This document shows, piece by piece, positions 1-63,089 of a stretch of DNA of 64,000 nt (position 1 is its first letter; every line of letters begins with the position of its first letter). The DNA is taken from contig CP086569.2 of assembly GCA_009914755.4 (NCBI GenBank), positions 12,064,001 to 12,128,000 on the forward strand. Direction: 5' to 3'. This DNA comes from the human T2T-CHM13v2.0 reference genome, Homo sapiens. Below the pieces are notes generated by a model that did no database searches, was not told the DNA's origin, and was given only the letters and a program-made list of their open reading frames with translations. Made by a program: the position numbers and the translations under genes.

Positions 1-199
1 ATGGATTGGAGTCGAACAGAATGGAATGGAATGGAATGAACTCGACTGGAGTAGAGAGGAATGAAAAGGAATAGAATGGAATGTAATCAAATGGATTGCA
101 AGTGAATGGAATCAAAAATAATAGAAAGGAATGGACTGTAAAGGGATGATATTGAATTAAATGGAATGGAATGGAATTTAATGGAATGGAGTCGAAGGA
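1..199 (+). repeat. 3' part of an HOR copy that is cut off by the window start
   Basis: Bases 1 to 199 match bases 1374 to 1572 of the next copy almost base for base (atggattggagtcgaacagaatgg...). Confidence 0.85.
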
Positions 200-8700: not shown

Positions 8701-11700
8701 GAATAGAATGGATTCAAATAAAATAGAATCGATTGCAATGGTATTGAATGGAAGGGACTTGAATGGAATGGAAAGCAATGGAAGATATTGGAATCGAATG
8801 GCATCGAATGAAATGGAATGGAACGGAATGGAACGGACCCGAATGGAATGGAATGGACTCAAATGTAATGGACTCGAATGGAATCGACTGAAATATAATA
8901 GACTCGAAAGGAATGGCCTCGAGCGGAATTTATTTGAATAGAATGGAATCAAATGGAATACAATGGTATAGAATGGAATCGAATGGAATGGAATCGAATG
9001 GAATGTAATCAAATGGAATGGAACGGAATTCAATATAATGGAATAGAATGGAATGCATTGGAAAGGAGCAGAGTGGAATCGAGTGGATTGGAATCGAGTG
9101 GAATGGAATCAAAGGGAACGAAATCGAATTGAATGGACTTGAATGGAATTGAGTCGAAAGGAATTGACTGGAAAGGAATGGACTGGAACAAAAAGGAATC
9201 AAATGGACAGGAATGGAATGGAATGGACTCGAATGGAATGGAGTCAAATGCAAACGCATCGAATGGAATGGATTCAAATGGAATGCAATTGAATGGAATA
9301 GAAAGGAAGAGAATGGAATTGAGAGTAATGGAAAGATATCGATTGGAATGAAATGGAATGGAAAGGAATTGAATGGAAAGGAATGGACTCGAAAGAAATG
9401 GATTGGAATGGAATGGTCTCCAATGGAATGGACTGGAGTAGAATGCAATCGAATGGAAAGAAAAGAATGGAACGGAATGGAACGGAAAGGAATAGAATGT
9501 TATGGAATCCGATTGGAGAGAATGGAATGGAAGCAGTTTCATGAAATGGAGTCGAATAGAGTGACATCAAAAGGAATGGAATGGAGTGGACTCAAAAGGA
9601 ATGGACTCGAAAGGAATGGAGTCGAACCAAATTGAATCAAATGGATTGGAGTCGAACAGAATGGAATGGAATGGAATGAACTCGACTGGAGTAGAGAGGA
9701 ATGAAAAGGAATAGAATGGAATGTAATCAAATGGATTGCAAGTGAATGGAATCAAAAATAATAGAAAGGAATGGAGTGTAAAGGGATGATATTGAATTAA
9801 ATGGAATGGAATGGAATTTAATGGAATGGAGTCGAAGGAATGGACAGGAATGTAATGGATTCCAATGGAATGGAATGGATCAAAATGGATTTGATCAGAT
9901 TGGAATCGAACGGAATGGAATGCAATGAAATGGAATGGACTCGATCAGAATGGACTGGAGAGGAATGTACACAAATGGAATGGAAACGAATGGAATGGAA
10001 TGAAATGGAATGGAATGCGATGGAATTGAAAGGAACGGAATCAAATGGAACGGAATGGAATGGAATGGAATGGATTGGAATAGAATGGATTCAAATAAAA
10101 TAGAATCGATTACAATGGTATTGAATGGAAGGGACTTGAATGGAATGGAAAGCAATGGAAGATATTGGAATCGAATCGCATCGAATGAAATGGAATGGAA
10201 CGGAATGGAACGGACTGGAATGGAATGGAATGGACTCAAATGTAATGGACTCGAATGGAATCGACTGAAATATAATAGACTCGAAAGGAATGGCCTCGAG
10301 CGGAATTTATTTGAATAGAATGGAATCAAATGGAATACAATAGTATGGAATGGAATCGAATGGAATGGAATCGAATGGAATGTAATCAAATGGAATGGAA
10401 CGGAATTCAATATAATGGAGTAGAATGGAATGCATTGGAAAGGAGCAGAGTGGAATCGAGTGGATTGGAATCGAGTGGAATGGAATCAAAGGGAACGAAA
10501 TCGAATTGAATGGACTTGAATGGAATTGAGTCGAAAGGAATTGACTCAAAAGGAATGGACTGGAACAAAAAGGAATCAAATGGACAGGAATGGAATGGAA
10601 TGGACTCGAATGGAATGGAGTCAAATGCAAACGCATCGAATGGAATGGATTCAAATGGAATGCAATTGAATGGAATAGAAAGGAAGAGAATGGAATTGAG
10701 AGTAATGGAAAGATATCGATTGGAATGAAATGGAATGGAAAGGAATTGAATGGAAAGGAATGGACTCGAAAGAAATGGATTGGAATGGAATGGTCTCCAA
10801 TGGAATGGACTGTAGTGGAATGGAATCGAATGGAAAGAAAAGAATGGAACGGAATGGAACGGAAAGGAATAGAATGTTATGGAATCCGATTGGACAGAAT
10901 GGAATGGAATGCAGTTTCATGAAATGGAGTCGAATAGAGTGGCATCAAAAGGAATGGAATGGAGTGGACTCAAAAGGAATGGACTCGAAAGGAATGGAGT
11001 CGAACCAAATTGAATCAAATGGATTGGAGTCGAACAGAATGGAATGGAATGGAATGAACTCGACTGGAGTAGAGAGGAATGAAAAGGAATAGAATGGATT
11101 GTAATCAAATGGATTGCAAGTGAATGGAATCAAAAATAATAGAAAGGAATGCAGTGTAAAGGGATGATATTGAATTAAATGGAATGGAATGGAATTTAAT
11201 GGAATGGAGTCGAAGGAATGGACAGGAATGTAATGGACTCCAATGGAATGGAATGGATCAAAATGGATTTGAACAGATTGGAATCGAACGGAATGGAATG
11301 CAATGAAATGGAATGGACTCGATCAGAACGGACAGGAGAGGAATGTACACAAATGGAATGGAAACGAATGGAATGGAATGAAATGGAATGGAATGCGATG
11401 GAATTGAAAGGAACGGAATCAAATGGAACGGAATGGAATGGAATGGAATGGATTGGAATAGAATGGATTCAAATAAAATAGAATCGATTACAATGGTATT
11501 GAATGGAAGGGACTTGAATGGAATGGAAAGCAATGGAAGATATTGGAATCGAATGGCATCGAATGAAATGGAATGGAACGGAATGGAACGGACTGGAATG
11601 GAATGGAATGGACTCAAATGTAATGGACTCGAATGGAATCGACTGAAATATAATAGACTCGAAAGGAATGGCCTCGAGCGGAATTTATTTGAATAGAATG

Positions 11701-14700
11701 GAATCAAATGGAATACAATAGTATGGAATGGAATCGAATGGAATGGAATCGAATGGAATGTAATCAAATGGAATGGAACGGAATTCAATATAATGGAGTA
11801 GAATGGAATGCATTGGAAAGGAGCAGAGTGGAATCGAGTGGATTGGAATCGAGTGGAATGGAATCAAAGGGAACGAAATCGAATTGAATGGACTTGAATG
11901 GAATTGAGTCGAAAGGAATTGACTCGAAAGGAATGGACTGGAACAAAAAGGAATCAAATGGACAGGAATGGAATGGAATGGACTCGAATGGAATGGAGTC
12001 AAATGCAAACGCATCGAATGGAATGGATTTAAATGGAATGCAATTGAATGGAATAGAAAGGAAGAGAATGGAATTGAGAGTAATGGAAAGATATCGATTG
12101 GAATGAAATTGAATGGAAAGGAATTGAATGGAAAGGAATGGACTCGAAAGAAATGGATTGGAATGGAATGGTCTCCAATGGAATGGACTGGAGTGGAATG
12201 CAATCGAATGGAAAGAAAAGAATGGAACGGAATGGAACGGAAAGGAATAGAATGTTATGGAATCCGATTGGACAGAATGGAATGGAATGCAGTTTCATGA
12301 AATGGAGTCGAATAGAGTGGCATGAAAAGGAATGGAATGGAGTGGACTCAAAAGGAATGGACTCGAAAGGAATGGAGTCGTACCAAATTGAATCAAATAG
12401 ATTGGAGTCGAACAGAATGGAATGGAATGGAATGAACTCGACTGGAGTAGAGAGGAATGAAAAGGAATAGAATGGAATGTAATCAAATGGATTGCAAGTG
12501 AATGGAATCAAAAATAATAGAAAGGAATGGAGTGTAAAGGGATGATATTGAATTAAATGGAATGGAATGGAATTTAATGGAATGGAGTCGAAGGAATGGA
12601 CAGGAATGTAATGGACTCCAATGGAATGGAATGGATCAAAATGGATTTGAACAGATTGGAATCGAACGGAATGGAATGCAATGAAATGGAATGGACTCGA
12701 TCAGAACGGACTGGAGAGGAATGTACACAAATGGAATGGAAACGAAAGGAATGGAATGAAATGGAATGGAATGCAATGGAATTGAAAGGAACGGAATCAA
12801 ATGGAATGGAATGGAATGGAATGGATTGGAATAGAATGGATTCAAATAAAATAGAATCGATTGCAATGGTATTGAATGGAAGGGACTGGAATGGAATGGA
12901 AACCAATGGAAGATATTGGAATCGAATGGCATCGAATGAAATGGAATGGAACGGAATGGAACAGACCCGAATGGAATGTAATGGACTCAAATGTAATGGA
13001 CTCGAATGGAATCGACTGAAATATAATAGACTCGAAAGGAATGGCCTCGAGCGGAATTTATTTGAATAGAATGGAATCAAATGGAATACAATGGTAGAGA
13101 ATGGAATCGAATGGAATGGAATCTAATGGAATGTAATCAAATGGAATGGAACGGAATTCAATATAATGGAGTAGAATGGAATGCATTGGAAAGGAGCAGA
13201 GTGGAATCGAGTGGATTGGAATCGAGTGGAATGGAATCAAAGGGAACGAAATCGAATTGAATGGACTTGAATGGAATTGAGTAGAAAGGAATTGACTCGA
13301 AAGGAATGGACTGGAACAAAAAGGAATCAAATGGACAGGAATGGAATGGAATGGACTCGAATGGAATGGAGTCAAATGCAAACGCATCGAATGGAATGGA
13401 TTCAAATGGAATGCAATTGAATGGAATAGAAAGGAAGAGAATGGAATTGAGAGTAATGGAAAGATATCGATTGGAATGAAATGGAATGGAAAGGAATTGA
13501 ATGGAAAGGAATGGACTCGAAAGAAATGGATTGGAATGGAATGGTCTCCAATGGAATGGACTGGAGTGGAATGCAATCGAATGGAAAGAAAAGAATGGAA
13601 CGGAATGGAACGGAAAGGAATAGAATGTTATGGAATCCGATTGAACAGAATGGAATGGAATGCAGTTTCATGAAATGGAGTCGAATAGAGTGGCATCAAA
13701 AGGAATGGAATGGAGTGGACTCAAAAGGAATGGACTCGAAAGGAATGGAGTCGAACCAAATTGAATCAAATGGATTGGAGTCGAACAGAATGGAATGGAA
13801 TGGAATGAACTCGACTGGAGTAGAGAGGAATGAAAAGGAATAGAATGGAATGTAATCAAATGGATTGCAAGTGAATGGAATCAAAAATAATAGAAAGGAA
13901 TGGAGTGTAAAGGGATGATATTGAATTAAATGGAATGGAATGGAATTTAATGGAATGGAGTCGAAGGAATGGACAGGAATGTAATGGACTCCAATGGAAT
14001 GGAATGGATCAAAATGGATTTGAACAGATTGGAATCGAACGGAATGGAATGCAATGAAATGGAATGGACTCGATCAGAACGGACTGGAGAGGAATGTACA
14101 CAAATGGAATGGAAACGAAAGGAATGGAATGAAATGGAATGGAATGCAATGGAATTGAAAGGAACGGAATCAAATGGAATGGAATGGAATGGAATGGATT
14201 GGAATAGAATGGATTCAAATAAAATAGAATCGATTGCAATGGTATTGAATGGAAGGGACTGGAATGGAATGGAAAGCAATGGAAGATATTGGAATCGAAT
14301 GGCATCGAATGAAACGGAATGGAACGGAATGGAACGGACCCGAATGGAATGGAATGGACTCAAATGTAATGGACTCGAATGGAATCGACTGAAATATAAT
14401 AGACTCGAAAGGAATGGCCTCGAGCGGAATTTATTTGAATAGAATGGAATCAAATGGAATACAATGGTATAGAATGGAATCTAATGGAATGGAATCGAAT
14501 GGAATGTAATCAAATGGAATGGAACGGAATTCAATATAATGGAGTAGAATGGAATGCATTGGAAAGGAGCAGAGTGGAATCGAGTGGATTGGAATCGAGT
14601 GGAATGGAATCAAAGGGAACGAAATCGAATTGAATGGACTTGAATGGAATTGAGTCGAAAGGAATTGACTCGAAAGGAATGGACTGGAACAAAAAGGAAT

Positions 14701-17700
14701 CAAATGGACAGGAATGGAATGGAATGGACTCGAATGGAATGGAGTCAAATGCAAACGCATCGAATGGAATGGATTCAAATGGAATGCAATTGAATGGAAT
14801 AGAAAGGAAGAGAATGGAATTGAGAGTAATGGAAAGATATCGATTGGAATGAAATGGAATGGAAAGGAATTGAATGGAAAGGAATGGACTCGAAAGAAAT
14901 GGATTGGAATGGAATGGTCTCCAATGGAATGGACTGGAGTGGAATGCAATTGAATGGAAAGAAAAGAATGGAACGGAATGGAACGGAAAGGAATAGAATG
15001 TTATGGAATCCGATTGAACAGAATGGAATGGAATGCAGTTTCATGAAATGGAGTCGAATATAGTGGCATCAAAAGGAATGGAATGGAGTGGACTCAAAAG
15101 GAATGGACTCGAAAGGAATGGAGTCGAACCAAATTGAATCAAATGGATTGGAGTCGAACAGAATGGAATGGAATGGAATGAACTCGACTGGAGTAGAGAG
15201 GAATGAAAAGGAATAGAATGGAATGTAATCAAATGGATTGCAAGTGAATGGAATCAAAAATAATAGAAAGGAATGGAGTGTAAAGGGAATATATTGAATT
15301 AAATGGAATGGAATGGAATTTAATGGAATGGAGTCGAAGGAATGGACAGGAATGTAATGGACTCCAATGGAATGGAATGGAACAAAATGGATTTGAACAG
15401 ATTGGAATCGAACGGAATGGAATGCAATGAAATGGAATGGACTCGATCAGAACGGACTGGAGAGGAATGTACACAAATGGAATGGAAACGAAAGGAATGG
15501 AATGAAATGGAATGGAATGCAATGGAATTGAAAGGAACGGAATCAAATGGAATGGAATGGAATGGAATGGATTCGAATAGAATGGATTCAAATAAAATAG
15601 AATCGATTGCAATGGTATTGAACGGAAGGGACTTGAATGGAATGGAAAGCAATGGAAGATATTGGAATCGAATGGCATCGAATGAAATGGAATGGAACGG
15701 AATGGAACGGACCCGAATGGTATGGAATGGACTCAAATGTAATGGACTCGAAAGGAATCGACTGAAATATAATAGACTCGAAAGGAATGGCCTCGAGCGG
15801 AATTTATTTGAATAGAATTGAATCAAATGGAATACAATAGTATGGAATGGAATCGAATGGAATGGAATCGAATGGAATGTAATCAAATGGAATGGAACGG
15901 AATTCAATATAATGGAGTAGAATGGAATGCATTGGAAAGGAGCAGAGTGGAATCGAGTGGATTGGAATCGAGTGGAATGGAATCAAAGGGAACGAAATCG
16001 AATTGAATGGACTTGAATGGAATTGAGTCGAAAGGAAATGACTCGAAAGGAATGGACTGGAACAAAAAGGAATCAAATGGACAGGAATGGAATGGAATGG
16101 ACTCGAATGGAATGGAGTCAAATGCAAACGCATCGAATGGAATGGATTCAAATGGAATGCAATTGAATGGAATAGAAAGGAAGAGAATGGAATTGAGAGT
16201 AATGGAAAGATATCGATTGGAATGAAATGGAATGGAAAGGAATTGAATGGAAAGGAATGGACTCGAAAGAAATGGATTGGAATGCAATGGTCTCCAATGG
16301 AATGGACTGGAGTGGAATGGAATCGAATGGAATGAAAAGAATGGAACGGAATGGAACGGAAAGGAATAGAATGTTATGGAATCCGATTGGACAGAATGGA
16401 ATGGAATGCAGTTTCATGAAATGGAGTCGAATAGAGTGGCATCAAAAGGAATGGAATGGAGTGGACTCAAAAGGAATGGACTCGAAAGGAATGGAGTCGA
16501 ACCAAATTGAATCAAATGGATTGGAATCGAACAGAATGGAATGGAATGGAATGAACTCGACTGGAGTAGAGAGGAATGAAAAGGAATAGAATGGAATGTA
16601 ATCAAATGGATTGCAAATGAATGGAATCAAAAATAATAGAAAGGAATGGAGTGTAAAGGGATGATATTGAATTAAATGGAATGGAATGGAATTTAATTTA
16701 ATGGAGTAGAAGGAATGGACAGGAATGTAATGGACTCCTATGGAATAGAATGGATCAAAATGGATTTGAACAGATTGGAATCGAACGGAATGGAATGCAA
16801 TGAAATGGAATGGACTCGATCAGAACGGACTGGAGAGTAATGTACACAATTGGAATGGAAACGAAAGGAATGCAATGAAAAGGAATGGAATGCAATGGAA
16901 TTGAAAGGAACGGAATCAAATGGAATGGAATGGAATGGAATGGATTGGAATAGAATGGATTCAAATAAAATAGAATCGATTGCAATGGTATTGAATGGAA
17001 GGGACTTGAATGGAATGGAAAGCAATGGAAGATATTGGAATCGAATGGCATAGAATGAAATGGAATGGAACGGAATGGAACGGACCAGAATGGTATGGAA
17101 TGGACTCAAATGTAATGGACTCGAATGGAATCGACTGAAATATAATAGACTCGAAAGGAATGGCCTCGAGCGGAATTTATTTGAATAGAATGGAATCAAA
17201 TGGAATACAATAGTATCGAATGGAATCGAATGGAATGGAATCGAATGGAATGCAATCAAATGGAATGGAACGGAATTCAATATACTGGAGTAGAATGGAA
17301 TGCATTGGAAAGGAGCAGAGTGGAATCGAGTGGATTGGAATCGAGTGGAATGGAATCAAAGGGAACGAAATCGAATTGAATGGACTTGAATGCAATTGAG
17401 TCGAAAGGAATTGACTCGAAAGGAATGGACTGGAACAAAAAGGAATCAAATGGACAGGAATGGAATGGAATGGACTCGAATGGAATGGAGTCAAATGCAA
17501 ACGCATCGAATGGAATGGATTCAAATGGAATGCAATTGAATGGAATAGAAAGGAAGAGAATGGAATTGAGAGTACTGGAAAGATATCGATTGGAATGAAA
17601 TGGAATGGAAAGGAATTGAATGGAAAGGAATGGACTCGAAAGAAATGGATTGGAATGGAATGGTCTCCAATGGAATGGACTGGAGTGGAATGGAATCGAA

Positions 17701-20700
17701 TGGAAAGAAAAGAATGGAACGGAATGGAACGGAAAGGAATAGAATGTTATGGAATCCGACTGGACAGAATGTAATGGAATGCAGTTTCATGAAATGGAGT
17801 CGAATAGAGTGGCATGAAAAGGAATGGAATGGAGTGGACTCAAAAGGAATGGACTCGAAAGGAATGGAGTCGAACCAAATTGAATCAAATGGATTGGAGT
17901 CGAACAGAATGGAATGGAATGGAATGAACTCGACTGGAGTAGAGAGGAATGAAAAGGAATAGAATGGAATGTAATCAAATGGATTGCAAGTGAATGGAAT
18001 CAAAAATAATAGAAAGGAATGGAGTGTAAAGGGATGATATTGAATTAAATGGAATGGAATGGAATTTAATGGAATGGAGTCGAAGGAATGGACAGGAATG
18101 TAATGGACTCCTATGGAATGGAATGGATCAAAATGGATTTGAACAGATTGGAATCGAACGGAACGGAATGCAATGAAATGGAATGGACTCGATCAGAACG
18201 GACTGGAGAGGAATGTACACAAATGGAATGGAAACGAAAGGAATGGAATGAAATGGAGTGGAATGCAATGGAATTGAAAGGAACGGAAACAAATGGAATG
18301 GAATGGAATGGAATGGATTGGAATAGAATGGATTCAAATAAAATAGAATCGATTGCAATGGTATTGAATGGAAGGGACTTGAATGGAATGGAAAGCAATG
18401 GAAGATATTGGAATCGAATGGCACCGAATGAAATGGAATGGAACGGAATGGAACGGACCCGAATGGAATGGAATGGACTCAAATGTAATGGACTCGAATG
18501 CAATCGACTGAAATATAATAGACTCGAAAGGAATGGCCTCGAGCGGAATTTATTTGAATAGAATGGAATCAAATGGAATACAATATTATAGAATGGAATC
18601 GAATGGAATGGAATCGAATGGAATGTAATCAAATGGAATGGAACGGAATTCAATATAATGGAGTAGAATGGAATGCATTGGAAAGGAGCAGAGTGGAATC
18701 GAGTGGATTGGAATCGAGTGGAATGGAATCAAAGGGAACGAAATCGAATTGAATGGACTTGAATGGAATTGAGTCGAAAGGAATTGACTCGAAAGGAATG
18801 GACTGGAACAAAAAGGAATCAAATGGACAGGAATGGAATGGAATGGACTCGAATGGAATGGAGTCAAATGCAAACGCATCGAATGGAATGGATTCAAATG
18901 GAATGCAATTGAATGGAATAGAAAGGAAGAGAATGGAATTGAGAGTAATGGAAAGATATCGATTGGAATGAAATGGAATGGAAAGGAATTGAATGGAAAG
19001 GAATGGACTCGAAAGAAATGGATTGGAATGGAATGGTCTCCAATGGAATGGACTGGAGTGGAATGCAATCGAATGGAAAGAAAAGAATGAAACGGAATGG
19101 AACGGAAAGGAATAGAATGTTATGGAATCCGATTGGACAGAATGGAATGGAATGCAGTTTTATGAAATGGAGTCGAATATAGTGGCATCAAAAGGAATGG
19201 AATGGAGTGGACTCAAAAGGAATGGACTCGAAAGGAATGGAGTCGAACCAAATTGAATCAAATGGATTGGAGTCGAACAGAATGGAATGGAATGGAATGA
19301 ACTCGAGTGGAGTAGAGAGGAATGAAAAGGAATAGAATGGAATGTAATCAAATGGATTGCAAGTGAATGGAATCAAAAATAATAGAAAGGAATGGAGTGT
19401 AAAGGGATGATATTGAATTAAATGGAATGGAATGGAATTTAATGGAATGGAGTCGAAGGAATGGACAGGAATGTAATGGACTCCAATGGAATGGAATGGA
19501 TCAAAATGGATTTGAACAGATTGGAATCGAACGGAATGGAATGCAATGAAATGGAATGGACTCGATCAGAACGGACTGGAGAGGAATGTACACAAATGGA
19601 ATGGAAACGAAAGGAATGGAATGAAATGGAATGGAATGCAATGGAATTGAAAGGAACGGAATCAAATGGAATGGAATGGAATGGAATGGATTGGAATAGA
19701 ATGGATTCAAATAAAATAGAATCGATTGCAATGGTATTGAATGGAAGGGACTTGAATGGAATGGAAAGCAATGGAAGATATTGGAATCGAATGGCATCGA
19801 ATGAAATGGAATGGAACGGAATGGAACGGACCCGAATGGAATGGAATGGACTCAAATGTAATGGACTCGAATGGAATCGACTGAAATATAATAGACTCGA
19901 AAGGAATGGCCTCGAGAGGAATTTATTTGAATAGAATGGAATCAAATGGAATACAATAGTATGGAATGGAATCGAATGGAATGGAATCGAATGGAATGTA
20001 ATCAAATGGAATGGAACGGAATTCAATATAATGGAGTAGAATGGAATGCATTGGAAAGGAGCAGAGTGGAATCGAGTGGATTGGAATCGAGTGGAATGGA
20101 ATCAAAGGGAACGAAATCGAATTGAATGGACTTGAATGGAATTGAGTCGAAAGGAATTGACTCAAAAGGAATGGACTGGAACAAAAAGGAATCAAATGGA
20201 CAGGAATGGAATGGAATGGACTCGAATGGAATGGAGTCAAATGCAAAGGCATCGAATGGAATGGATTCAAATGGAATGCAATTGAATGGAATAGAAAGGA
20301 AGAGAATGGAATTGAGAGTAATGGAAAGATATCGATTGGAATGGAATGGAATGGAAAGGAATTGAATGGAAAGGAATGGACTCGAAAGAAATGGATTGGA
20401 ATGGAATGGTCTCCAATGGAATGGACTGGAGTGGAATGGAATCGAATGGAAAGAAAAGAATGGAACGGAATGGAACGGAAAGGAATAGAATGTTATGGAA
20501 TCCGATTGGACAGAATGGAATGGAATGCAGTTTCATGAAATGGAGTCGAACAGAGTGACATCAAAAGGAATGGAATGGAGTGGACTCAAAAGGAATGGAC
20601 TCGAAAGGAATGGAGTCGAACCAAATTGAATCAAATGGATTGGAGTCGAACAGAATGGAATGGAATGGAATGAACTCGACTGGAGTAGAGAGGAATGAAA

Positions 20701-21040
20701 AGGAATAGAATGGAATGTAATCAAATGGATTGCAAGAGAATGGAATCAAAAATAATAGAAAGGAATGGAGAGTAAAGGGATGATATTGAATTAAATGGAA
20801 TGGAATGGAATTTAATGGAATGGAGTCGAAGGAATGGACAGGAATGTAATGGATTCCAATGGAATGGAATGGATCAAAATGGATTTGAACAGATTGGAAT
20901 CGAACGGAATGGAATGCAATGAAATGGAATGGACTCGATCAGAACGGACTGGAGAGGAATGTACACAAATGGAATGGAAACGAATGGAATGCAATGAAAT
21001 GGAATGGAATGCAATGGAATTGAAAGTAACGGAATCAAAT

Positions 21041-21085
21041 GGAATAGAATGGAATGGAATGGAATGGAATGGAATGGAATGGAAT
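21041..21085 (+). repeat. Expanded GGAAT microtract (ggaat-agaat followed by 7 pure ggaat; canonical is 4) inside HOR copy 20834-22231 (1398 bp)
   Basis: The canonical sequence is caaat ggaat x4 ggatt. Here it is caaat ggaat agaat ggaat x7 ggatt, a 25-bp gain, which gives a 1398-bp landmark spacing. Confidence 0.85.
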
Positions 21086-24000
21086 GGATTGGAATAGAAT
21101 GGATTCAAATAAAATAGAATCGATTGCAATGGTATTGAATGGAAGGGACTTGAATGGAATGGAAAGCAATGGAAGATATTGGAATCGAATGGCACCGAAT
21201 GAAATGGAATGGAACGGAATGGAACGGACCCGAATGGAATGGAATGGACTCAAATGTAATGGACTCGAATGCAATCGACTGAAATATAATAGACTCGAAA
21301 GGAATGGCCTCGAGCGGAATTTATTTGAATAGAATGGAATGAAATGGAATACAATAGTATGGAATGGAATCGAATGGAATGGAATCGAATGGAATGTAAT
21401 CAAATGGAATGGAACGGAATTCAATATAATGGAGTAGAATGGAATGCATTGGAAAGGAGCAGAGTGGAATCCAGTGTATTGGAATCGAGTGGAATGGAAT
21501 CAAAGGGAACAAAATCGAATTGAATGGACTTGAATGGAATTGAGTCGAAAGGAATTGACTCGAAAGGAATGGACTGGAACAAAAAGGAATCAAATGGACA
21601 GGAATGGAATGGAATGGACTCGAATGGAATGGAGTCAAATGCAAACGCATCGAATGGAATGGATTCAAATGGAATGCAATTGAATGGAATAGAAAGGAAG
21701 AGAATGGAATTGAGAGTAATGGAAAGATATCGATTGGAATGAAATGGAATGGAAAGGAATTGAATGGAAAGGAACGGACTCGAAAGAAATGGGTTGGAAT
21801 GGAATGGTCTCCAATGGAATGGACTGGAGTGGAATGGAATCGAATGGAATGAAAAGAATGGAACGGAATGGAACGGAAAATAATAGAATGTTATGGAATC
21901 CGATTGGACAGAATGGAATGGAATGCAGTTTCATGAAATGGAGTCGAACAGAGTGACATCAAAAGGAATGGAATGGAGTGGACTCAAAAGGAATGGACTC
22001 GAAAGGAATGGAGTCGAACCAAATTGAATCAAATGGATTGGATTCGAACAGAATGGAATGGAATGGAATGAACTCGACTGGAGTAGAGAGGAATGAAAAG
22101 GAATAGAATGGAATGTAATCAAATGGATTGCAAGTGAATGGAATCAAAAATAATAGAAAGGAATGGAGTGTAAAAGGATGATGTTGAATTAAACGGAATG
22201 GAATGGAATTTAATGGAATGGAGTCGAAGGAATGGACAGGAATGTAATGGACTCCAATGGAATGGAATGGATCAAAATGGATTTGAACAGATTGGAATCG
22301 AACGGAATGGAATGCAATGAAATGGAATGGACTCGAACAGAACGGACTTGAAAGGAATATACACAAATGGAAAGGAAACGAATGGAATGGAATGAAATGG
22401 AATGGAATGCAATGGAATTGAAAGGAACGGAATCAAATGGAATGGAATGGAATGGAATGGAATGGATTGGAATAGAATGGATACAAATATAATAGAATCG
22501 ATTGCAATGGTATTGAATGGAAGGGACTTGAATGGAATGGAAAGCAATGGAAGATATTGGAATCGAATGGCATCGAATGAAATGGAATGGAACGGAATGG
22601 AACTGACCCGAATGGAATGGAATGGACTCAAATGTAATGGACTCGAATGGAATCGACTGAAATATAATAGACTCGAAAGGAATGGCCTCGAGAGGAATTT
22701 ATTTGAATAGAATGGAATCAAATGGAATACAATAGTATAGAATGGAATCGAATGGAATGGAATCGAATGGAATGTAATCAAATGGAATGGAACGGAATTC
22801 AATATAATGGAGTAGAATGGAATGCATTGGAAAGGAGCAGAGTGGAATCGAGTGGATTGGAATCGAGTGGAATGGAATCAAAGGGAACGAAATCGAATTG
22901 AATGGACTTGAATGGAATTGAGTCGAAATGAATTGACTCGAAAGGAATGGACTGGAACAAAAAGGAATCAAATGGACAGGAATGGAATGGAATGGACTCG
23001 AATGGAATGGAGTCAAATTCAAACGCATCGAATGGAATGGATTCAAATGGAATGCAATTGAATGGAATAGAAAGGAAGAGAATGGAATTGTGAGTAATGG
23101 AAAGATATCGATTGGAATGAAATGGAATGGAAAGGAATTGAATGGAAAGGAATGGACTCGAAAGAAATGGATTGGAATGGAATGGTCTCCAATGGAATGG
23201 ACTTGAGTGGAATGGAATCGAATGGAAAGAAAAGAATGGAACGGAATGGAACGGAAAGGAATAGAATGTTATGGAATCCGATTGGACATAATGGAATGGA
23301 ATGCAGTTTCATGAAATGGAGTCGAATAGAGTGGCATCAAAAGGAATGGAATGGAGTGGACTCAAAAGGAATGGACTCGAAAGGAATGGAGTCGAACCAA
23401 ATTGAATCAAATGGATTGGAGTCGAACAGAATGGAATGGAATGGAATGAACTCGACTGGAGTGGAGAGGAATGAAAAGGAATAGAATGGAATGTAATCAA
23501 ATGGATTGCAAGTGAATGGAATCAAAAATAATAGAAAGGAATGGAGTGTAAAGGGATGATATTGAATTAAATGGAATGGAATGGAATTTAATGGAATGGA
23601 GTCGAAGGAATGGACAGGAATGTAATGGACTCCAATGGAATGGAATGGATCAAAATGGATTTGAACAGATTGGAATCGAACGGAATGGAATGCAATGAAA
23701 TGGAATGGACTCGATCAGAACGGACTGGAGAGGAATGTACACAAATGGAATGGAATCGAAAGGAATGGAATGAAATGGAATAGAATGCAATGGAATTGAA
23801 AGGAACGGAATCAAATAGAATGGAATGGAATGGAATGGAATGGATTGGAATAGAATGGATTCAAATATAATAGAATCGATTGCAATGGTATTGAATGGAA
23901 GGGACTTGAATGGAATGGAAAGCAATGGAAGATATTGGAATCGAATGGCATCGAATGAAATGGAATGGAACGGAATGGAACGGACTGTAATGGAATGGAA

Positions 24001-27000
24001 TGGACTCAAATGTAATGGACTCGAATGGAATCGACTGAAATATAATAGACTCGAAAGGAATGGCCTCGAGCGGAATTTATTTGAATAGAATGGAATCAAA
24101 TGGAATACAATCGTATGGAATGGAATCGAATGGAATGGAATCGAATGGAATGTAATCAAATGGAATGGAACGGAATTCAATATAATGGAGTAGAATGGAA
24201 TGCATTGGAAAGGAGCAGAGTGGAATCGAGTGGATTGGAATCGAGTGGAATGGAATCAAAGGGAACGAAATCGAATTGAATGGACTTGAATGGAATTGAG
24301 TTGAAAGGAATTGACTCGAAAGGAATGGACTGGAACAAAAAGGAATCAAATGGACAGGAATGGAATGGAATGGACTCGAATGGAATGGAGTCAAATGCAA
24401 ACGCATCGAATGGAATGGATTCAAATGGAATGCAATTGAATGGAATAGAAAGGAAGAGAATGGAATTGAGAGTAATGGAAAGATATCGATTGGAATGAAA
24501 TGGAATGGAAAGGAATTGAATGGAAAGGAATGGACTCGAAAGAAATGGATTGGAATGGAATGGTCTCCAAAGGAATGGACTGGAGTGGAATGGAATCGAA
24601 TGGAAAGAAAAGAATGGAACGGAATGGAACGGAAAGGAATAGAATGTTATGGAATCCGATTGGACAGAATGGAATGGAATGCAGTTTCATGAAATGGAGT
24701 CGAATAGAGCGTCATCAAAAGGAATGGAATGGAGTGGACTCAAAAGGAATGGACTCGAAAGGAATGGATTCGAACCAAATTGAATCAAATTGATTGGACT
24801 CGAACAGAATGGAATGGAATGGAATGAACTCGACTGGAGTAGAGAGGAATGAAAAGGAATAGAATGGAATGTAATCAAATGGATTGCAAGTGAATGGAAT
24901 CAAAAATAATAGAAAGGAATGGAGTGTAAAGGGATGATATTGAATTAAATGGAATGGAATGGGATTTAATGGAATGGAGTAGAAGGAATGGACAGGAATG
25001 TAATGGACTCCAATGGAATGGAATGGATCAAAATGGATTTGAACAGATTGGAATCGAACGGAATGGAATGCAATGAAATAGAATGGACTCGATCAGACCG
25101 GACTGGAGAGGAATGTACACAAATGGAATGGAAACGAAAGGAATGGAATGAAATGGAATGGAATGCAATGGAATTGAAAGGAACGGAATCAAATGGAATG
25201 GAATGGAATGGAATAGATTGGAATAGAATTGATTCAAATAAAATAGAATCGATTGCAATGGTATTGAATGGAAGGGACTTGAATGGAATGGAAAGCAATG
25301 GAAGATATTGGAATCGAATGGCATCGAATGAAACGGAATGGAACGGAATGGAACGGACCCGAATGGAATGGAATGGACTCAAATGTAATGGATTCGAATG
25401 GAATCGACTGAAATATAATAGACTCGAAAGGAATGGCCTCGAGCGGAATTTATTTGAATAGAATAGAATCAAATGGAATACAATAGTATGGAATGGAATC
25501 GAATGGAATGGAATCGAATGGAATGTAATCAAATGGAATGGAACGGAATTCAATATAATGGAGTAGAATGGAATGCATTGGAAAGGAGCAGAGTGGAATC
25601 GAGTGGATTGGAATCGAGTGGAATGGAATCAAAGGGAACGAAATCGAATTGAATGGACTTGAATGGAATTGAGTCGAAAGGAATTGACTCGAAAGGAATG
25701 GACTGGAATAAAAAGGAATCAAATGGACAGGAATGGAATGGAATGGACTCGAATGGAATGGAGTCAAATGCAAACGCATCGAATGGAATGGATTCAAATG
25801 GAATGCAATTGAATGGAATAGAAAGGAAGAGAATGGAATTGAGAGTAATGGAAAGATATCGATTGGAATGAAATGGAATGGAAAGGAATTGAATGGAAAG
25901 GAATGGACTCGAAAGAAATGGATTGGAATGGAATGGTCTCCAATGGAATGGACTGGAGTGGAATGGAATCGAATGGAAAGAAAAGAATGGAACGGAATGG
26001 AACGGAAAGGAATAGAATGTTATGGAATCCGATTGGACAGAATGGAATGGAATGCAGTTTCATGAAATGGAGTCGAATAGAGTGGCATCAAAAGGAATGG
26101 AATGGAGTGGACTCAAAAGGAATGGACTCGAAAGGAATGGAGTCGAACCAAATTGAATCAAATGGATTGGAGTCGAACAGAATGGAATGGAATGGAATGA
26201 ACTCGACTGGAGTAGAGAGGAATGAAAAGGAATAGAATGGAATGTAATCAAATGGATTGCAAGTGAATGGAATCAAAAATAATAGAAAGGAATGGAGTGT
26301 AAAGGGATGATATTGAATTAAATGGAATGGAATGGAATTTAATGGAATGGAGTCGAAGGAATGGACAGGAATGTAATGGACTCCAATGGAATGGAATGGA
26401 TCAAAATGGATTTGAACAGATTGGAATGGAACGGAATGGAATGCAATGAAATGGAATGGACTCGATCAGAACGGACTGGAGAGGAATGTACACAAATGGA
26501 ATGGAAACGAATGGAATGGAATGAAATGGAATGGAATGCAATGGAATTGAAAGGAACGGAATTAAATGGAATGGAATGGAATGGAATGGATTGGAATAGA
26601 ATGGATTCAAATAAAATAAAATCGATTGCAATGGTATTGAATGGAAGGGACTTGAATGGAATGGAAAGCAATGGAAGATATTGGAATCGAATGGCATCGA
26701 ATGAAATGGAATGGAACGGAATGGAACGGACCCGAATGGAATGGAATGGAGTCAAATGTAATGGACTCGAATGGAATCGACTGAAATATAATAGACTCGA
26801 AAGGAATGGCCTCGAGCGGAATTTATTTGAATAGAATGGAATCAAATGGAATACAATAGTATGGAATGGAATCGAATGGAATGGAATCGAATGGAATGTA
26901 ATCAAATGGAATGGAACGGAATTCAATATAATGGAATAGAATGGAATGCATTGGAAAGGAGCAGAGTGGAATCGAGTGTATTGGAATCGAGTGGAATGGA

Positions 27001-27733
27001 ATCAAAGGGAACGAAATCGAATTGAATGGACTTGAATGGAATTGAGTCGAAAGGAATTGACTCGAAAGGAATGGACTGGAACAAAAAGGAATCAAATGGA
27101 CAGGAATGGAATGGAATGGACTCGAATGGAATGGAGTCAAATGCAAACGCATCGAATGGAATGGATTCAAATGGAATGCAATTGAATGGAATAGAAAGGA
27201 AGAGAATGGAATTGAGAGTAATGGAAAGATATCGATTGGAATGAAATGGAATGGAAAGGAATTGAATGGAAAGGAATGGACTCGAAAGAAATGGATTGGA
27301 ATGGAATGGTCTCCAATGGAATGGACTGGAGTGGAATGCAATCGAATGGAAAGAAAAGAATAGAACGGAATGGAACGGAAAGAAATAGAATGTTATGGAA
27401 TCCGATTGGACAGAATGGAATGGAATGCAGTTTCATGAAATGGAGTCGAATAGAGTGGCATCAAAAGGAATGGAATGGAGTGGACTCAAAAGGAATGGAC
27501 TCGAAAGGAATGGAGTCGAACCAAATTGAATCAAATGGATTGGAGTCGAACAGAATGGAATGGAATGGAATGAACTCGACTGGAGTAGAGAGGAATGAAA
27601 AGGAATAGAATGGAATGTAATCAAATCGATTGCAAGTGAATGGAATCAAAAATAATAGAAAGGAATGGAGTGTAAAGGGATGATATTGAATTAAATGGAA
27701 TGGAATGGAATTTAATGGAATGGAGTCGAAGGA

Positions 27734-30489
27734 ATGGACAGGAATGTAATGGACTCCAATGGAATGGAATGGATCAAAATGGATTTGAACAGATTGGAAT
27801 CGAACGGAATGGAATGCAATGAAATGGAATGGACTCGATCAGAACGGACTGGAGAGGAATGTACACAAATGGAATGGAAACGAATGGAATGGAATGAAAT
27901 GGAATGGAGTGCAATGGAATTGAAAGGAACGGAATCACATGGAACGGAATGGAATGGAATGGAATGGATTGGAATAGAATGGATTCAAATAAAATAGAAT
28001 CGATTGCAATGGTATTGAATGGAAGGGACTTGAATGGAATGGAAAGAAATGGAAGATATTGGAATCGAATGGCATCGAATGAAATGGAATGGAACGGAAT
28101 GGAACGGACCCTAATGGAATGGAATGGACTCAAATGTAATGGACTCGAGTGGAGTCGAATGAAATATAATAGACTCGAAAGGAATGGCCTCGAGCGGAAT
28201 TTATTTGAATAGAATGGAATCAAATGGAATACAATAGTATGGAATGGAATCGAATGGAATGGAATCGAATGGAATGTAATCAAATGGAATGGAACGGAAT
28301 TCAATATAATGGAGTAGAATGGAATGCATTGGAAAGGAGCAGAGTAGAATCGAGTGGATTGGAATCGAGTGGAATGGAATCAAAGGGAACGAAATCGAAT
28401 TGAATGGACTTGAATGGAATTGAGTTGAAAGGAATTGACTCGAAAGGAATGGACTGGAACAAAAAGGAATCAAATGGACAGGAATGGAATGGAATGGGCT
28501 CGAATGGAATGGAGTCAAATGCAAATGCATCGAATGGAATGGATTCAAAGGGAATGCAATTGAATGGAATAGAAAGTAAGAGAATGGAATTGAGAGTAAT
28601 GGAAAGATATCGATTGGAATGAAATGGAATGGAAAGGAATTGAATGGAAAGGAATGGACTCGAAAGAAATGGATTGGAATGGAATGGTCTCCAATGGAAT
28701 GGACTGGAGTGGAATGCAATCGAATGGAAAGAAAAGAATAGAACGGAATGGAACGGAAAGAAATAGAATGTTATGGAATCCGATTGGACAGAATGGAATG
28801 GAATGCAGTTTCATGAAATGGAGTCGAATAGAGTGGCATCAAAAGGAATGGAATGGAGAGGACTCAAAAGGAATGGACTCGAAAGGAATGGAGTCGAACC
28901 AAATTGAATCAAATGGATTGGAGTCGAACAGAATGGAATGGAATGAAATGAACTCGACTGGAGTAGAGAGGAATGAAAAGGAATAGAATGGAATGTAATC
29001 AAATGGATTGCAAGTGAATGGAATCAAAAATAATAGAAAGGAATGGAGTGTAAAGGGATGATATTGAATTAAATGGAATGGAATGGAATTTAATGGAATG
29101 GAGTCGAAGGAATGGACAGGAATGTAATGGACTCCAATGGAATGGAATGGATCAAAATGGATTTGAACAGATTGGAATCGAACGGAATGGAATGCAATGA
29201 AATGGAATGGACTCGATCAGAACGGACTGGAGAGGAATGTACACAAATGGAATGGAAACGAATGGAATGGAATGAAATGGAATGGAGTGCAATGGAATTG
29301 AAAGGAACGGAATCACATGGAACGGAATGGAATGGAATGGAATGGATTGGAATAGAATGGATTCAAATAAAATAGAATCGATTGCAATGGTATTGAATGG
29401 AAGGGACTTGAATGGAATGGAAAGCAATGGAAGATATTGGAATCGAATGGCATCGAATGAAATGGAATGGAACGGAATGGAACGGACCCGAATGGAATGG
29501 AATGGACTCAAATGTAATGGACTCGAATGGAGTCGAATGAAATATAATAGACTCGAAAGGAATGGCCTCGAGCGGAATTTATTTGAATACAATGGAATCA
29601 AATGGAATACAATAGTATGGAATGGAATCGAATGGAATGGAATCGAATGGAATGTAATCAAATGGAATGGAACGGAATTCAATATAATGGAGTAGAATGG
29701 AATGCATTGGAAAGGAGCAGAGTAGAATCGAGTGGATTGGAATCGAGTGGAATGGAATCAAAGGGAACGAAATCGAATTGAATGGACTTGAATGGAGTTG
29801 AGTTGAAAGGAATTGACTCGAAAGGAATGGACTGGAACAAAAAGGAATCAAATGGACAGGAATGGAATGGAATGGGCTCGAATGGAATGGAGTCAAATGC
29901 AAACGCATCGAATGGTATGGATTCAAAGGGAATGCAATTGAATGGAATAGAAAGGAAGAGAATGGAATTGAGAATAATGGAAAGATATCGTTTGGAATGA
30001 AATGGAATGGAAAGGAATTGAATGGAAAGGAATGGACTCGAAAGAAATGGATTGGAATGGAATGGTCTCCAATGGAATGGACTGGAGTGGAATGCAATCG
30101 AATGGAAAGAAAAGAATGGAACGGAATGGAACGGAAAGGAATAGAATGTTATGGAATCCGATTGGACAGAATGGAATGGAATGCAGTTTCATGAAATGGA
30201 GTCGAATAGAGTGGCATCAAAATGAATGGAATGGAGTGGACACAAAAGGAATGGACTCGAAAGGAATGGAGTCGAACCAAATTGAATCAAATGGATTGGA
30301 GTCGAACAGAATGGAATGGAATGGAATGAACTCGACTGGAGTAGAGAGGAATGAAAAGCAATAGAATGGAATGTAATCAAATGGATTGCAAGTGAATGGA
30401 ATCAAAAATAATAGAAAGGAATGGAGTGTAAAGGGATGATATTGAATTAAATGGAATGGAATGGAATTTAATGGAATGGAGTCGAAGGA
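27734..30489 (+). repeat. Two adjacent HOR copies (27734-29111 and 29112-30489) forming a young local duplication block
   Basis: Both copies share private variants seen nowhere else in the window: cacatggaacgg (artefact peptide ...GTESHGTEW), ctcgagtggagtcgaatgaaatat (EWSRMKYN), gggctcgaatgg (NGMGSNG) and ggattcaaagggaatgcaattg. They still differ from each other at several sites. Confidence 0.75.
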
Positions 30490-32073: not shown

Positions 32074-32118
32074 TGGAATGGAATGGAATGGAATGGAATG
32101 GAATGGAATGGAATGGAA
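32074..32118 (+). repeat. Expanded GGAAT microtract (9 pure ggaat) inside HOR copy 31868-33265 (1398 bp)
   Basis: There are nine uninterrupted ggaat units before ggattgg, where the canonical count is four. This is a 25-bp gain. A smaller expansion to 7 units is at 34841 to 34875. Confidence 0.85.
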
Positions 32119-62900: not shown

Positions 62901-63089
62901 GTCGAAAAGAATGGAAAGGGATGGAATGAACTCGACTGGAGTAGAGAGGAATGAAAAGGAATAGAATGGAATGTAATCAAATGGATTGCAAGTGAATGGA
63001 ATCAAAAATAATAGAAAGGAATGGAGTGTAAAGGGATGATATTGAATTAAATGGAATGGAATGGAATTTAATGGAATGGAGTCGAAGGA

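What the first reader, a model, noticed from the sequence alone, without database searches (positions are those of the whole stretch)
21041..21085. Hypermutable pure-GGAAT microtract inside each HOR produces a 5-bp-quantised ladder of HOR lengths
Almost all HOR length variation maps to one site, the run of perfect ggaat units after ggaatcaaat. Its copy number is 4 in canonical 1373-bp copies. It is 3 in the copy at 33266 (tract near 33466-33485). It is 5 (ggaac plus 4 ggaat) in the 1378-bp copies, for example at 10046-10070. It is 7 at 34841-34875, and 9 at 21041-21085 and 32074-32118. Landmark spacings are therefore 1363, 1368, 1373, 1378, 1383, 1398 or 1403 bp. The rest of the HOR, made of diverged pentamers, hardly slips. 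This is a microsatellite-type slippage hotspot inside a satellite HOR. It could be used as a length marker for array haplotypes.
Basis: seen in the sequence. Interest (0 to 1): 0.5.

Follow-up and report, generated by a model that had tools for sequence, protein, structure and literature searches.

The report
Slippage-prone GGAAT run in Y satellite
Each 1373-bp unit of this human satellite 3 array (probably from the Y chromosome) holds one pure GGAAT run that gains and loses whole 5-bp units far more often than the rest of the unit, which is real but expected short-tandem-repeat behaviour and might serve as a lineage marker.

Summary
The whole window is a GGAAT-type satellite with a 1373-bp unit: 46 full copies and 47 tracts. 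The tract, (GGAAT)n between GGAATCAAAT and GGATTGGAATAGAATGGATTC, has 4 units in 23 copies, 5 in 10, 3 in 7, 2 in 2, 6 in 2, 7 in 1 and 9 in 2. It is the longest perfect period-5 run in the unit, and every perfect run of 22 bp or more in the 64 kb lies there. On a tree of the units it changed length at least 13 times, against 8 indel events in the other 98% of the unit (P about 7e-18).

"Almost all length variation" is overstated:
- The 1403-bp unit comes from a 30-bp duplication elsewhere.
- Two of the four 1363-bp units come from a 10-bp deletion elsewhere.
- Three units are 1 bp off the ladder.
- The tract at 21041 is interrupted by AGAAT.

A subfamily-specific 24-mer identifies the array as HSat3A3, reported as Y-specific.

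The best explanation is length-dependent replication slippage, with alleles then spread by unit amplification. The rate is modest, about 40-60 times the per-site substitution rate. This is a known kind of behaviour at a site I did not find described. Interest is low to moderate.

The parts
403..431 (+). tract, 4 units (canonical; in the partial first unit)
1776..1804 (+). tract, 4 units
3149..3177 (+). tract, 4 units
4522..4550 (+). tract, 4 units (unit is 1403 bp because of the 30-bp duplication at 5080-5139)
5925..5953 (+). tract, 4 units
7298..7326 (+). tract, 4 units
8671..8699 (+). tract, 4 units
10043..10076 (+). tract, 5 units (GGAAC + 4 GGAAT)
11421..11454 (+). tract, 5 units (GGAAC + 4 GGAAT)
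12799..12827 (+). tract, 4 units
14172..14200 (+). tract, 4 units
15545..15573 (+). tract, 4 units
16918..16946 (+). tract, 4 units
18291..18319 (+). tract, 4 units
19664..19692 (+). tract, 4 units
21037..21090 (+). tract of the finding: 9 units, second unit AGAAT, longest pure run 7
22435..22468 (+). tract, 5 pure units
23813..23846 (+). tract, 5 units (AGAAT + 4)
25191..25219 (+). tract, 4 units, closing GGATT changed to AGATT
26564..26592 (+). tract, 4 units
27937..27970 (+). tract, 5 units (ACAT GGAAC + 4)
29315..29348 (+). tract, 5 units (ACAT GGAAC + 4)
30693..30726 (+). tract, 5 pure units
32071..32124 (+). tract, 9 pure units (longest perfect run in the window, 51 bp)
33469..33492 (+). 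tract, 3 units
34837..34880 (+). tract, 7 pure units
36224..36252 (+). tract, 4 units
37597..37620 (+). tract, 3 units
38964..38992 (+). tract, 4 units
40337..40365 (+). tract, 4 units
41710..41743 (+). tract, 5 pure units
43088..43116 (+). tract, 4 units
44466..44489 (+). tract, 3 units (2 GGAAT + GGAAG); unit stays 1373 bp because of +5 bp at consensus 705
45834..45862 (+). tract, canonical length, but GGATT>GGAAT fuses it with the next GGAAT: 6 pure units
47212..47245 (+). tract, 5 units (AAGT flank); first copy of the 5.3-kb block
48595..48618 (+). tract, 3 units (2 + GGAAG)
49963..50001 (+). tract, 6 pure units (unit also has the 190-bp deletion)
51146..51174 (+). tract, 4 units (unit is 1363 bp through a 10-bp deletion at consensus 143)
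52524..52557 (+). tract, 5 units (AAGT flank); second copy of the 5.3-kb block
53907..53930 (+). tract, 3 units (2 + GGAAG)
55275..55313 (+). tract, 6 pure units (unit also has the 190-bp deletion)
56458..56486 (+). tract, 4 units (unit is 1363 bp through a 10-bp deletion at consensus 143)
57831..57854 (+). tract, 3 units
59199..59217 (+). tract shortened by 10 bp at its 3' end (3 GGAAT, closing GGATT lost)
60562..60585 (+). tract, 3 units
61930..61948 (+). tract, 2 units, with CAAAT changed to CGAAT
63293..63321 (+). tract, 4 units
1..64000 (+). HSat3A3-type satellite array, GGAAT-rich strand up, 1373-bp nested tandem repeat unit, 46 full units

Best explanation
The window is a human satellite 3 array of subfamily HSat3A3, built of 1373-bp nested tandem repeat units that differ from one another by about 2%. 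The subfamily is reported as Y-specific, so the array probably lies next to the Y centromere (DYZ17 or the neighbouring HSat3 block). Each unit contains one run of (GGAAT)n that is longer than any other perfect run in the unit: 26 bp of perfect period-5 repeat in the consensus. During replication or repair the nascent and template strands misalign by whole pentamers in this run. This adds or removes 5-bp units, and it does so more often the longer the pure run is. Alleles that arise this way are then copied along the array when units or blocks of units are amplified. The result is unit lengths on a 5-bp ladder and patches of shared alleles.

Shown here: the location, the 5-bp quantisation, recurrence on different unit lineages, the concentration in the longest pure run, and inheritance together with linked substitutions.

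Inferred: that the molecular step is polymerase slippage, possibly helped by the non-canonical hairpin that pure GGAAT/ATGGA repeats form in vitro.
For: - Structure: the 1373-bp period and 46 units.
- Alleles: 47 tracts with 7 length classes, all differing by multiples of 5 bp. The flanks align without mismatch clusters.
- Run length: the tract is the longest perfect period-5 run in the consensus, and all runs of 22 bp or more in the window lie at it.
- Recurrence: an NJ tree on tract-masked substitutions needs at least 13 changes of tract length (Fitch), or 20 unit steps. The rest of the unit has 8 indel events. Binomial P is about 7e-18, and about 1.6e-12 when opportunity is restricted to perfect runs.
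- Length dependence: the 20-bp run at consensus 338-357 has 0 events, P = 4.5e-5 if rate were simply proportional to length. The 18-bp and 14-bp runs have one event each.
- Flanks preserved: the subtype marked by cons629 A>G and cons1119 G>A, on either side of the tract, carries alleles 9, 7 and 6.
- Heritability: related or duplicated units share alleles, for example the 5.3-kb block copies at 99.85% identity.
- Independent samples: metagenome contigs carrying human DNA show the canonical allele, the GGAAC+4 allele and a 2-unit allele.
- Literature: slippage rates rise exponentially with STR size in humans (PMC2997547). Pure ATGGA repeats fold into a guanine-zipper hairpin, and hairpin slippage is reported above six repeats (PMC11014236).
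- Identity: the HSat3A3-specific 24-mer occurs once per unit.
Against: - No direct observation of a mutation event, and sequence alone cannot separate slippage from short-range unequal exchange.
- The NJ tree of units is star-like and units can exchange sequence, so the count of independent events is approximate.
- Two +5-unit alleles of equal length sit on different backgrounds (c20316, c31350) and share one exclusive substitution, cons1132 G>C. That could reflect transfer by conversion rather than two expansions.
- Two of the shortenings (59199, 61930) touch the tract boundary rather than lying cleanly inside the pure run.
- Watson-Crick-only folding predicts no structure, so the hairpin contribution rests on the literature.
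- Orthologous array-edge tracts are all 4 units across many metagenome samples. So the per-tract rate is low on a population time scale.
Confidence: 0.8

Rival explanations
1. Recombination rather than slippage. Unequal sister-chromatid exchange or gene conversion between units, paired 5n bp out of register inside the tract, creates and moves the length alleles.
For: - The array clearly evolves by unequal exchange or duplication: a 5312-bp four-unit block is duplicated at 99.85% identity.
- The 190-bp deletion lies between direct repeats.
- The 9-unit alleles of c20316 and c31350 sit on otherwise unrelated units, and those units share cons1132 G>C exclusively.
- Gene conversion is documented to move microsatellite alleles between Y palindrome arms (PMC4233959, listed).
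Against: - Markers on both sides of the tract (cons601/629/633 and cons1119/1312) stay together in a subtype whose tract is 9, 7 or 6 units.
- c20316 lacks cons1119 G>A, which lies between the tract and cons1132, so there is no clean conversion tract.
- Out-of-register pairing by 5 bp is possible at about 20 other GGAAT runs in the unit, yet they show 0-1 events.
- Changes of one unit dominate: 17 of 24 variant tracts.
Confidence: 0.12
2. There is no elevated rate. A few old tract alleles arose once each and were multiplied by amplification of units, so the site only looks like a hotspot.
For: - Several alleles are shared by adjacent or duplicated units: 10043/11421, 27937/29315, and the two copies of the 5.3-kb block.
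- Array-edge tracts are invariant across many samples.
Against: - Seven length classes and 16 distinct tract sequences occur among 47 tracts.
- At least 13 changes are needed on the unit tree.
- Even the floor of 6 changes is far above the expectation for 2% of the unit (P about 1e-7).
- Any other site could have been amplified in the same way, yet each shows a single event.
Confidence: 0.05
3. Assembly or sequencing artefact. Long-read consensus miscounts pentamers in the pure run.
For: Low-complexity runs are the places where consensus errors concentrate. The three 1-bp deletions elsewhere in the units could be errors of that sort.
Against: - Variant alleles are shared by units that also share linked substitutions, and they are identical in the 5.3-kb duplicate.
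- Several carry their own point substitutions: GGAAC, AGAAT, GGAAG, AAGT.
- The GGAAC+4 allele and a 2-unit allele recur in independent short-read metagenome contigs. L014 matches best to the window unit that carries the same allele.
Confidence: 0.03

Closest known systems
Short tandem repeat (microsatellite) slippage with length-dependent rate (e.g. Leclercq et al. 2010, PMC2997547)
   Same: A perfect run of a 5-bp motif. Changes occur in whole motif units, mostly plus or minus one. The rate climbs steeply with the length of the perfect run. Interrupted alleles occur (GGAAC, AGAAT, GGAAG).
   Different: The repeat is not a single-copy locus. It is one of hundreds of paralogous copies in an identical flanking context inside a satellite unit that is itself made of degenerate copies of the same motif. 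Alleles are also multiplied by amplification of units.
Human satellite 3, subfamily HSat3A3 (Altemose et al. 2014, PMC4022460), with units of the kind called nested tandem repeats (Altemose et al. 2021, bioRxiv 10.1101/2021.07.12.452052)
   Same: A GGAAT/CATTC-derived satellite with a kilobase-scale unit. The subfamily-specific 24-mer is present once per unit. The array shows local block duplications, as described for HSat arrays.
   Different: The papers I could read give no unit length for HSat3A3 and do not describe an internal length-variable pure tract. Chromosomal placement could not be tested here.
Alpha-satellite higher-order repeats and their structural variants or HOR-haplotypes
   Same: Multi-copy units about 98% alike. 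Variant units cluster in domains and can serve as array haplotype markers.
   Different: There are no discrete monomers. 1373 is not a multiple of 5, and the pentamer phase drifts within the unit. Alpha-satellite HOR length variants differ by whole 171-bp monomers, not by slippage of an internal microsatellite.
Gene conversion of microsatellites in Y-chromosomal palindromes (PMC4233959)
   Same: Paralogous copies of the same STR on a probably non-recombining chromosome, where conversion can move alleles and break the stepwise pattern.
   Different: Here there are tandem units rather than inverted arms, and the flanking markers do not show a clean conversion tract.

Membership tests
Human satellite 3 (HSat3) | Derived from the pentamer GGAAT/CATTC, strongly strand-asymmetric | tested here: met
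   3855 GGAAT against 5 ATTCC in 64 kb. TRF finds period-5 multiples over the whole window. GC skew is about +0.58 throughout.
Human satellite 3 (HSat3) | Not HSat2 (no HSATII-type ATCATC/GATGAT signature, no HSat2 subfamily 24-mers) | tested here: met
   ATCATC occurs 0 times. The HSat2A1, A2 and B 24-mers have 0 matches at up to 2 mismatches.
HSat3 subfamily A3 | [quoted passage not shown] | tested here: met
   37 exact matches and 47 at up to 1 mismatch, which is once per unit. No other subfamily 24-mer matches exactly.
HSat3 subfamily A3 | Located on the human Y chromosome | not testable with these tools
   No human genome collection is available. Human origin is supported by 97-99.4% matches in contigs from metagenome assemblies, at least one labelled as a human skin metagenome. 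Y localisation rests on PMC4022460 and bioRxiv 10.1101/2021.07.12.452052.
Microsatellite / STR evolving by slippage | Perfect tandem run of a 1-6 bp motif | tested here: met
   26 bp of perfect period-5 repeat in the consensus and up to 51 bp in one unit.
Microsatellite / STR evolving by slippage | Length alleles differ by whole motif units, mostly single steps | tested here: met
   All 24 variant tracts differ by multiples of 5 bp, and 17 of them by one unit.
Microsatellite / STR evolving by slippage | Mutation rate rises with the number of perfect repeats | tested here: met
   At least 13 events at the 26-bp run against 0 at the 20-bp run and 0-1 at shorter runs. The expanded subtype shows three different lengths in three lineages.
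Microsatellite / STR evolving by slippage | Changes arise by strand misalignment in replication or repair, without exchange of flanks | tested here: inconclusive
   Flanking markers are kept together in the 9/7/6 subtype. No mutation event is observed directly, and one possible conversion signal exists (cons1132).
Monomer-based higher-order repeat (alpha-satellite sense) | Unit composed of a whole number of discrete monomers of similar length | tested here: not met
   1373/5 = 274.6, and the GGAAT phase within the unit splits 56/21/9. Published usage for such HSat units is 'nested tandem repeat'.

The most novel reading that the evidence does not exclude
If the array is indeed on the non-recombining Y, the tract is the same pentanucleotide repeat placed hundreds of times in an identical flanking context, on a chromosome with a known genealogy. 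That would be a natural mutation-accumulation experiment. Comparing orthologous units across the published Y assemblies could give per-generation slippage rates as a function of pure-run length (2 to 9 or more units) with flank effects held constant. It could also test whether the sharp rise between 4.0 and 5.2 perfect units reflects the onset of the guanine-zipper hairpin of GGAAT repeats rather than generic length dependence. The same alleles would date and order the amplification events that built the array.
Probability: 0.3. Interest if true: 0.4.

Novelty: new member of a known kind. Interest (0 to 1): 0.25.

Why it matters
The finding shows in one array how a satellite unit built of degenerate pentamers stays length-stable except where a pure run exceeds about five units. 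That explains the 5-bp ladder of unit lengths.

It has practical uses. The tract allele, together with linked substitutions, labels unit subtypes and amplification blocks. This could help validate assemblies of this array and compare it between Y lineages.

As biology it is expected behaviour for a short tandem repeat. The estimated rate is modest. It is about 40-60 times the per-site substitution rate per tract. That is my inference, and it corresponds to roughly 1e-6 per generation or less if ordinary human substitution rates apply.

Tried and rejected
- A scan of genome contigs for the tract with its flanks found nothing.
- The metagenome scan found 21 contigs. Most overlap one another at about 99% and represent the same array-edge locus, with 1-2 units followed by diverged HSat3. 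They therefore give little information on array-wide polymorphism.
- Literature searches for a 1.37/1.4-kb HSat3 unit, or for a described variable tract in HSat3A3 or DYZ17, found no such description. The '1.4 kb' and '1373' hits were an SST1 monomer and a page number.
- Watson-Crick folding of either strand of the 4-unit and 9-unit tracts predicts no structure, with z-scores of +1.0 to +1.2. Any hairpin contribution must therefore be the non-canonical fold reported in PMC11014236.
- I looked for a conversion tract linking the two 9-unit alleles. They share only cons1001 and cons1132, with an unshared marker (cons1119) between the tract and cons1132, so the result is not convincing.
- One paper reading failed on a term that was too short.
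- Rejected: HSat2 identity, and chance clustering of indels.

Full report
**What is there.** The whole 64-kb window is one satellite array on the GGAAT-rich strand. GC content is about 0.385 and GC skew about +0.58 in every 2-kb bin. TRF reports period-5 multiples from base 1 to base 64000. Two independent 26-28-bp anchors each occur 47 times, with a modal spacing of 1373 bp. This gives 46 complete units plus a partial unit at each end. With the anchor GAGTAATGGAAAGATATCGTTTGGAATG the unit lengths are as follows:

| Unit length (bp) | Number of units |
|---|---|
| 1373 | 22 |
| 1378 | 7 |
| 1363 | 4 |
| 1368 | 3 |
| 1398 | 2 |
| 1383 | 2 |
| 1193 | 2 |
| 1403, 1377, 1387, 1367 | 1 each |

Units differ pairwise by a mean of 28.7 substitutions, about 2%, in a largely star-like pattern.

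**Checking the observation.** A MAFFT alignment of the 46 units gives a 1373-bp majority consensus and a short list of indel sites. In consensus coordinates these are:
- a 10-bp deletion at 143 (2 units)
- a 1-bp deletion at 211
- a 5-bp insertion at 488 (2 units)
- a 5-bp insertion at 705 (3 units)
- the tract at 722-748 (24 units)
- a 190-bp deletion at 847 (2 units)
- 1-bp deletions at 957 and 961
- a 30-bp insertion at 1279 (1 unit)

The alignment around the tract is clean, so the gaps are not alignment artefacts. I measured the stretch between GGAATC and GGAATAGAATGGATTC in all 47 instances:

| Stretch (bp) | GGAAT units | Instances |
|---|---|---|
| 29 | 4 | 23 |
| 34 | 5 | 10 |
| 24 | 3 | 7 |
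| 54 | 9 | 2 |
| 39 | 6 | 2 |
| 19 | 2 | 2 |
| 44 | 7 | 1 |

**Corrections to the observation.**
- The tract at 21041-21085 has AGAAT as its second unit, so its pure run is 7 units.
- The 1403-bp unit has a canonical tract. It owes its length to a 30-bp tandem duplication at 5080-5139.
- Two of the four 1363-bp units come from the deletion at consensus 143.
- The 1383-bp units combine +5 bp at the tract with +5 bp at consensus 488.
- Three 1373-bp units hide a 3-unit tract compensated by +5 bp nearby.

Of the 24 units that are not 1373 bp, 14 are explained by the tract alone, 3 by other sites alone and 7 by both. Excluding the two 190-bp-deleted units, tract length explains 61% of the length variance. 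43 of 46 unit lengths fall on the 5-bp ladder. So the tract is the main site of length variation by number of units and events. It is not the source of almost all of it.

**Is it more than chance?** The tract is the longest perfect period-5 run of the consensus, at 26 bp. The next longest are 20, 18, 18 and 17 bp. Every perfect period-5 run of 22 bp or more in the whole window lies at this unit offset. On a neighbour-joining tree built from substitutions with the tract masked, tract length needs at least 13 changes (Fitch), or 20 single-unit steps. Each of the other eight indel sites needs one event. Thirteen of 21 events in 1.9% of the unit gives a binomial P of about 7e-18. The hard floor of six changes (seven length classes) still gives about 1e-7. 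Restricting opportunity to perfect runs of 12 bp or more gives about 1.6e-12. The 20-bp run at consensus 338-357 shows no event, P = 4.5e-5 if rate were merely proportional to run length. The dependence on run length is therefore steep.

**How the alleles are distributed.**
- The first 20 kb is almost uniformly 4 units.
- Expansions cluster at 21-35 kb.
- Contractions and a four-unit block pattern occupy 43-62 kb.
- The 5312-bp block 46486-51797 is repeated at 51798-57109 with only 8 mismatches, and it carries alleles 5, 3, 6, 4 both times. Alleles are therefore inherited when units are amplified.

Units with 9 (32071), 7 (34837) and 6 (49963, 55275) units form one subtype. It is defined by exclusive substitutions on both sides of the tract, cons629 A>G and cons1119 G>A. 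Within one lineage the tract therefore took three different lengths while its flanks stayed together. This is what stepwise, length-dependent slippage predicts. The other 9-unit allele (21037) sits on a different background. It shares only cons1132 G>C exclusively with the 32071 unit, and an unshared marker lies between that site and the tract. Transfer by conversion is possible but not demonstrated.

**Rate.** The tree holds about 465 substitutions over about 1332 sites, or 0.35 per site. The tract as a locus has therefore changed 37-57 times as often as a single nucleotide site. It follows, as my inference, that with ordinary human substitution rates this is on the order of 1e-6 per tract per generation or less. 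That is far below forensic STRs. 'Hypermutable' is thus true only relative to the rest of the unit.

**External sequences.** A scan of metagenome assemblies for the tract with its flanks returned 21 contigs, including one labelled as a human skin metagenome. They match window units at up to 99.4% identity, which indicates human DNA. Most overlap one another at 99.1-99.8% and run from one or two units into more diverged satellite. They are therefore the same array-edge locus seen in many samples. Of their 26 tracts, 24 have the canonical 29-bp length (one of them with a substitution inside the run), one is GGAAC+4 and one has 2 units. The GGAAC+4 contig matches best to the window unit that carries the same allele. 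This argues against assembly artefact, and it shows that a given 4-unit tract is stable between individuals. Both points fit the modest rate. A scan of prokaryotic genome contigs found nothing.

**Identity.**
- The window lacks the HSat2 ATCATC signature.
- Of the 14 subfamily-specific 24-mers in Table 1 of Altemose et al. 2014 (PMC4022460), only the HSat3A3 one matches exactly. It matches 37 times, and 47 times with one mismatch allowed, which is once per unit.
- That paper describes HSat3A3 as a previously uncharacterised Y-specific subfamily of about 836 kb. The T2T centromere paper states that HSat3A3 is almost entirely on chrY.
- The Y assemblies papers place an HSat3 array of 372-488 kb and a DYZ17 array of 0.86-1.74 Mb next to the DYZ3 centromere.
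- I infer that the window comes from one of these, more likely DYZ17 by size. I could not test this.
- Altemose et al. call such units nested tandem repeats rather than HORs. That fits here, because 1373 is not a multiple of 5 and the pentamer phase drifts within the unit.

**Mechanism.** The best-supported reading is replication or repair slippage in the only run long enough to misalign readily, followed by spread of alleles through unit amplification.
- The general rule, an exponential rise of slippage with STR size in humans, is established (PMC2997547).
- A specific aid may be the fold of the purine-rich strand. Four pure ATGGA repeats form a monomolecular hairpin held by a guanine zipper. 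The authors note that hairpins form for any n > 2 and that hairpin slippage is reported above six repeats (PMC11014236).
- Nearest-neighbour Watson-Crick folding predicts no structure for either strand, so this part rests on the literature alone.
- If the array is on the male-specific Y, meiotic crossing-over with a homologue is excluded. That leaves slippage, sister-chromatid exchange and intrachromosomal conversion.

**Rivals.**
- Recombination-based change cannot be excluded from sequence alone. It is disfavoured by preserved flanks, by the absence of events at the many shorter GGAAT runs, and by the predominance of single-unit steps.
- The idea of a few old alleles that were merely amplified is contradicted by the number of changes required on the tree and by 16 distinct tract sequences.
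- Assembly error is contradicted by linkage of alleles to substitutions, by identity within the duplicated block, and by recovery of variant alleles in independent short-read contigs.

**Verdict.** The behaviour is of a known kind: a short tandem repeat whose instability depends on its pure-run length. Here it sits at a site, inside the HSat3A3 unit, for which I found no description in the papers I could search. Its main value is practical, as a marker of unit subtypes and, if the Y placement holds, as a many-copy system for calibrating slippage against the Y genealogy.

Noticed in passing
window 46486-51797 and 51798-57109: A 5312-bp block of four units (1383, 1373, 1193 and 1363 bp) is duplicated in tandem with 8 mismatches (99.85% identity). 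The surrounding units are about 98% alike, so this looks like a recent local amplification.
   Followed up: partly
window 5080-5139: A 30-bp tandem duplication (TCGAATGGAATGGAGTCAAATGCAAACGCA twice) creates the single 1403-bp unit.
   Followed up: yes
window about 50085-50100 and 55397-55412 (units starting at 49242 and 54554): A 190-bp deletion of consensus 847-1036 whose junction lies in the direct repeat GGAATCGAATGG. This suggests a homology-mediated deletion.
   Followed up: partly
window 45834-45867: A GGATT>GGAAT substitution fuses the 4-unit tract with the following GGAAT. This makes a 33-bp perfect run (6 units) with no change of length, so a longer pure run arose by point mutation.
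   Followed up: no
units at 31350, 34116, 49242, 54554: The 9-, 7- and 6-unit alleles belong to one unit subtype with exclusive substitutions at consensus 629 and 1119. The subtype is dispersed over 23 kb, among units of other subtypes.
   Followed up: partly
window, once per unit (e.g. consensus about 440-463): The HSat3A3-specific 24-mer of Altemose 2014 occurs 37 times exactly and 47 times at up to 1 mismatch. This points to the Y-specific subfamily.
   Followed up: yes
L001-L021 (metagenome contigs): Many metagenome assemblies (at least one from human skin) contain the same edge of this array: 1-2 canonical units followed by satellite only 75-88% similar to the unit. These are human contaminant contigs that overlap one another at about 99%.
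   Followed up: partly
units at 9323, 34116, 36876 (consensus 211, 961, 957): Three single-base deletions put these units 1 bp off the 5-bp ladder. They could be real or consensus errors.
   Followed up: no
window 1-20000 versus 36000-64000: Unit subtypes are spatially structured. For example, consensus 670 T>A is carried by nearly all units in the first 20 kb and is rare later, and tract alleles follow the same domains.
   Followed up: no
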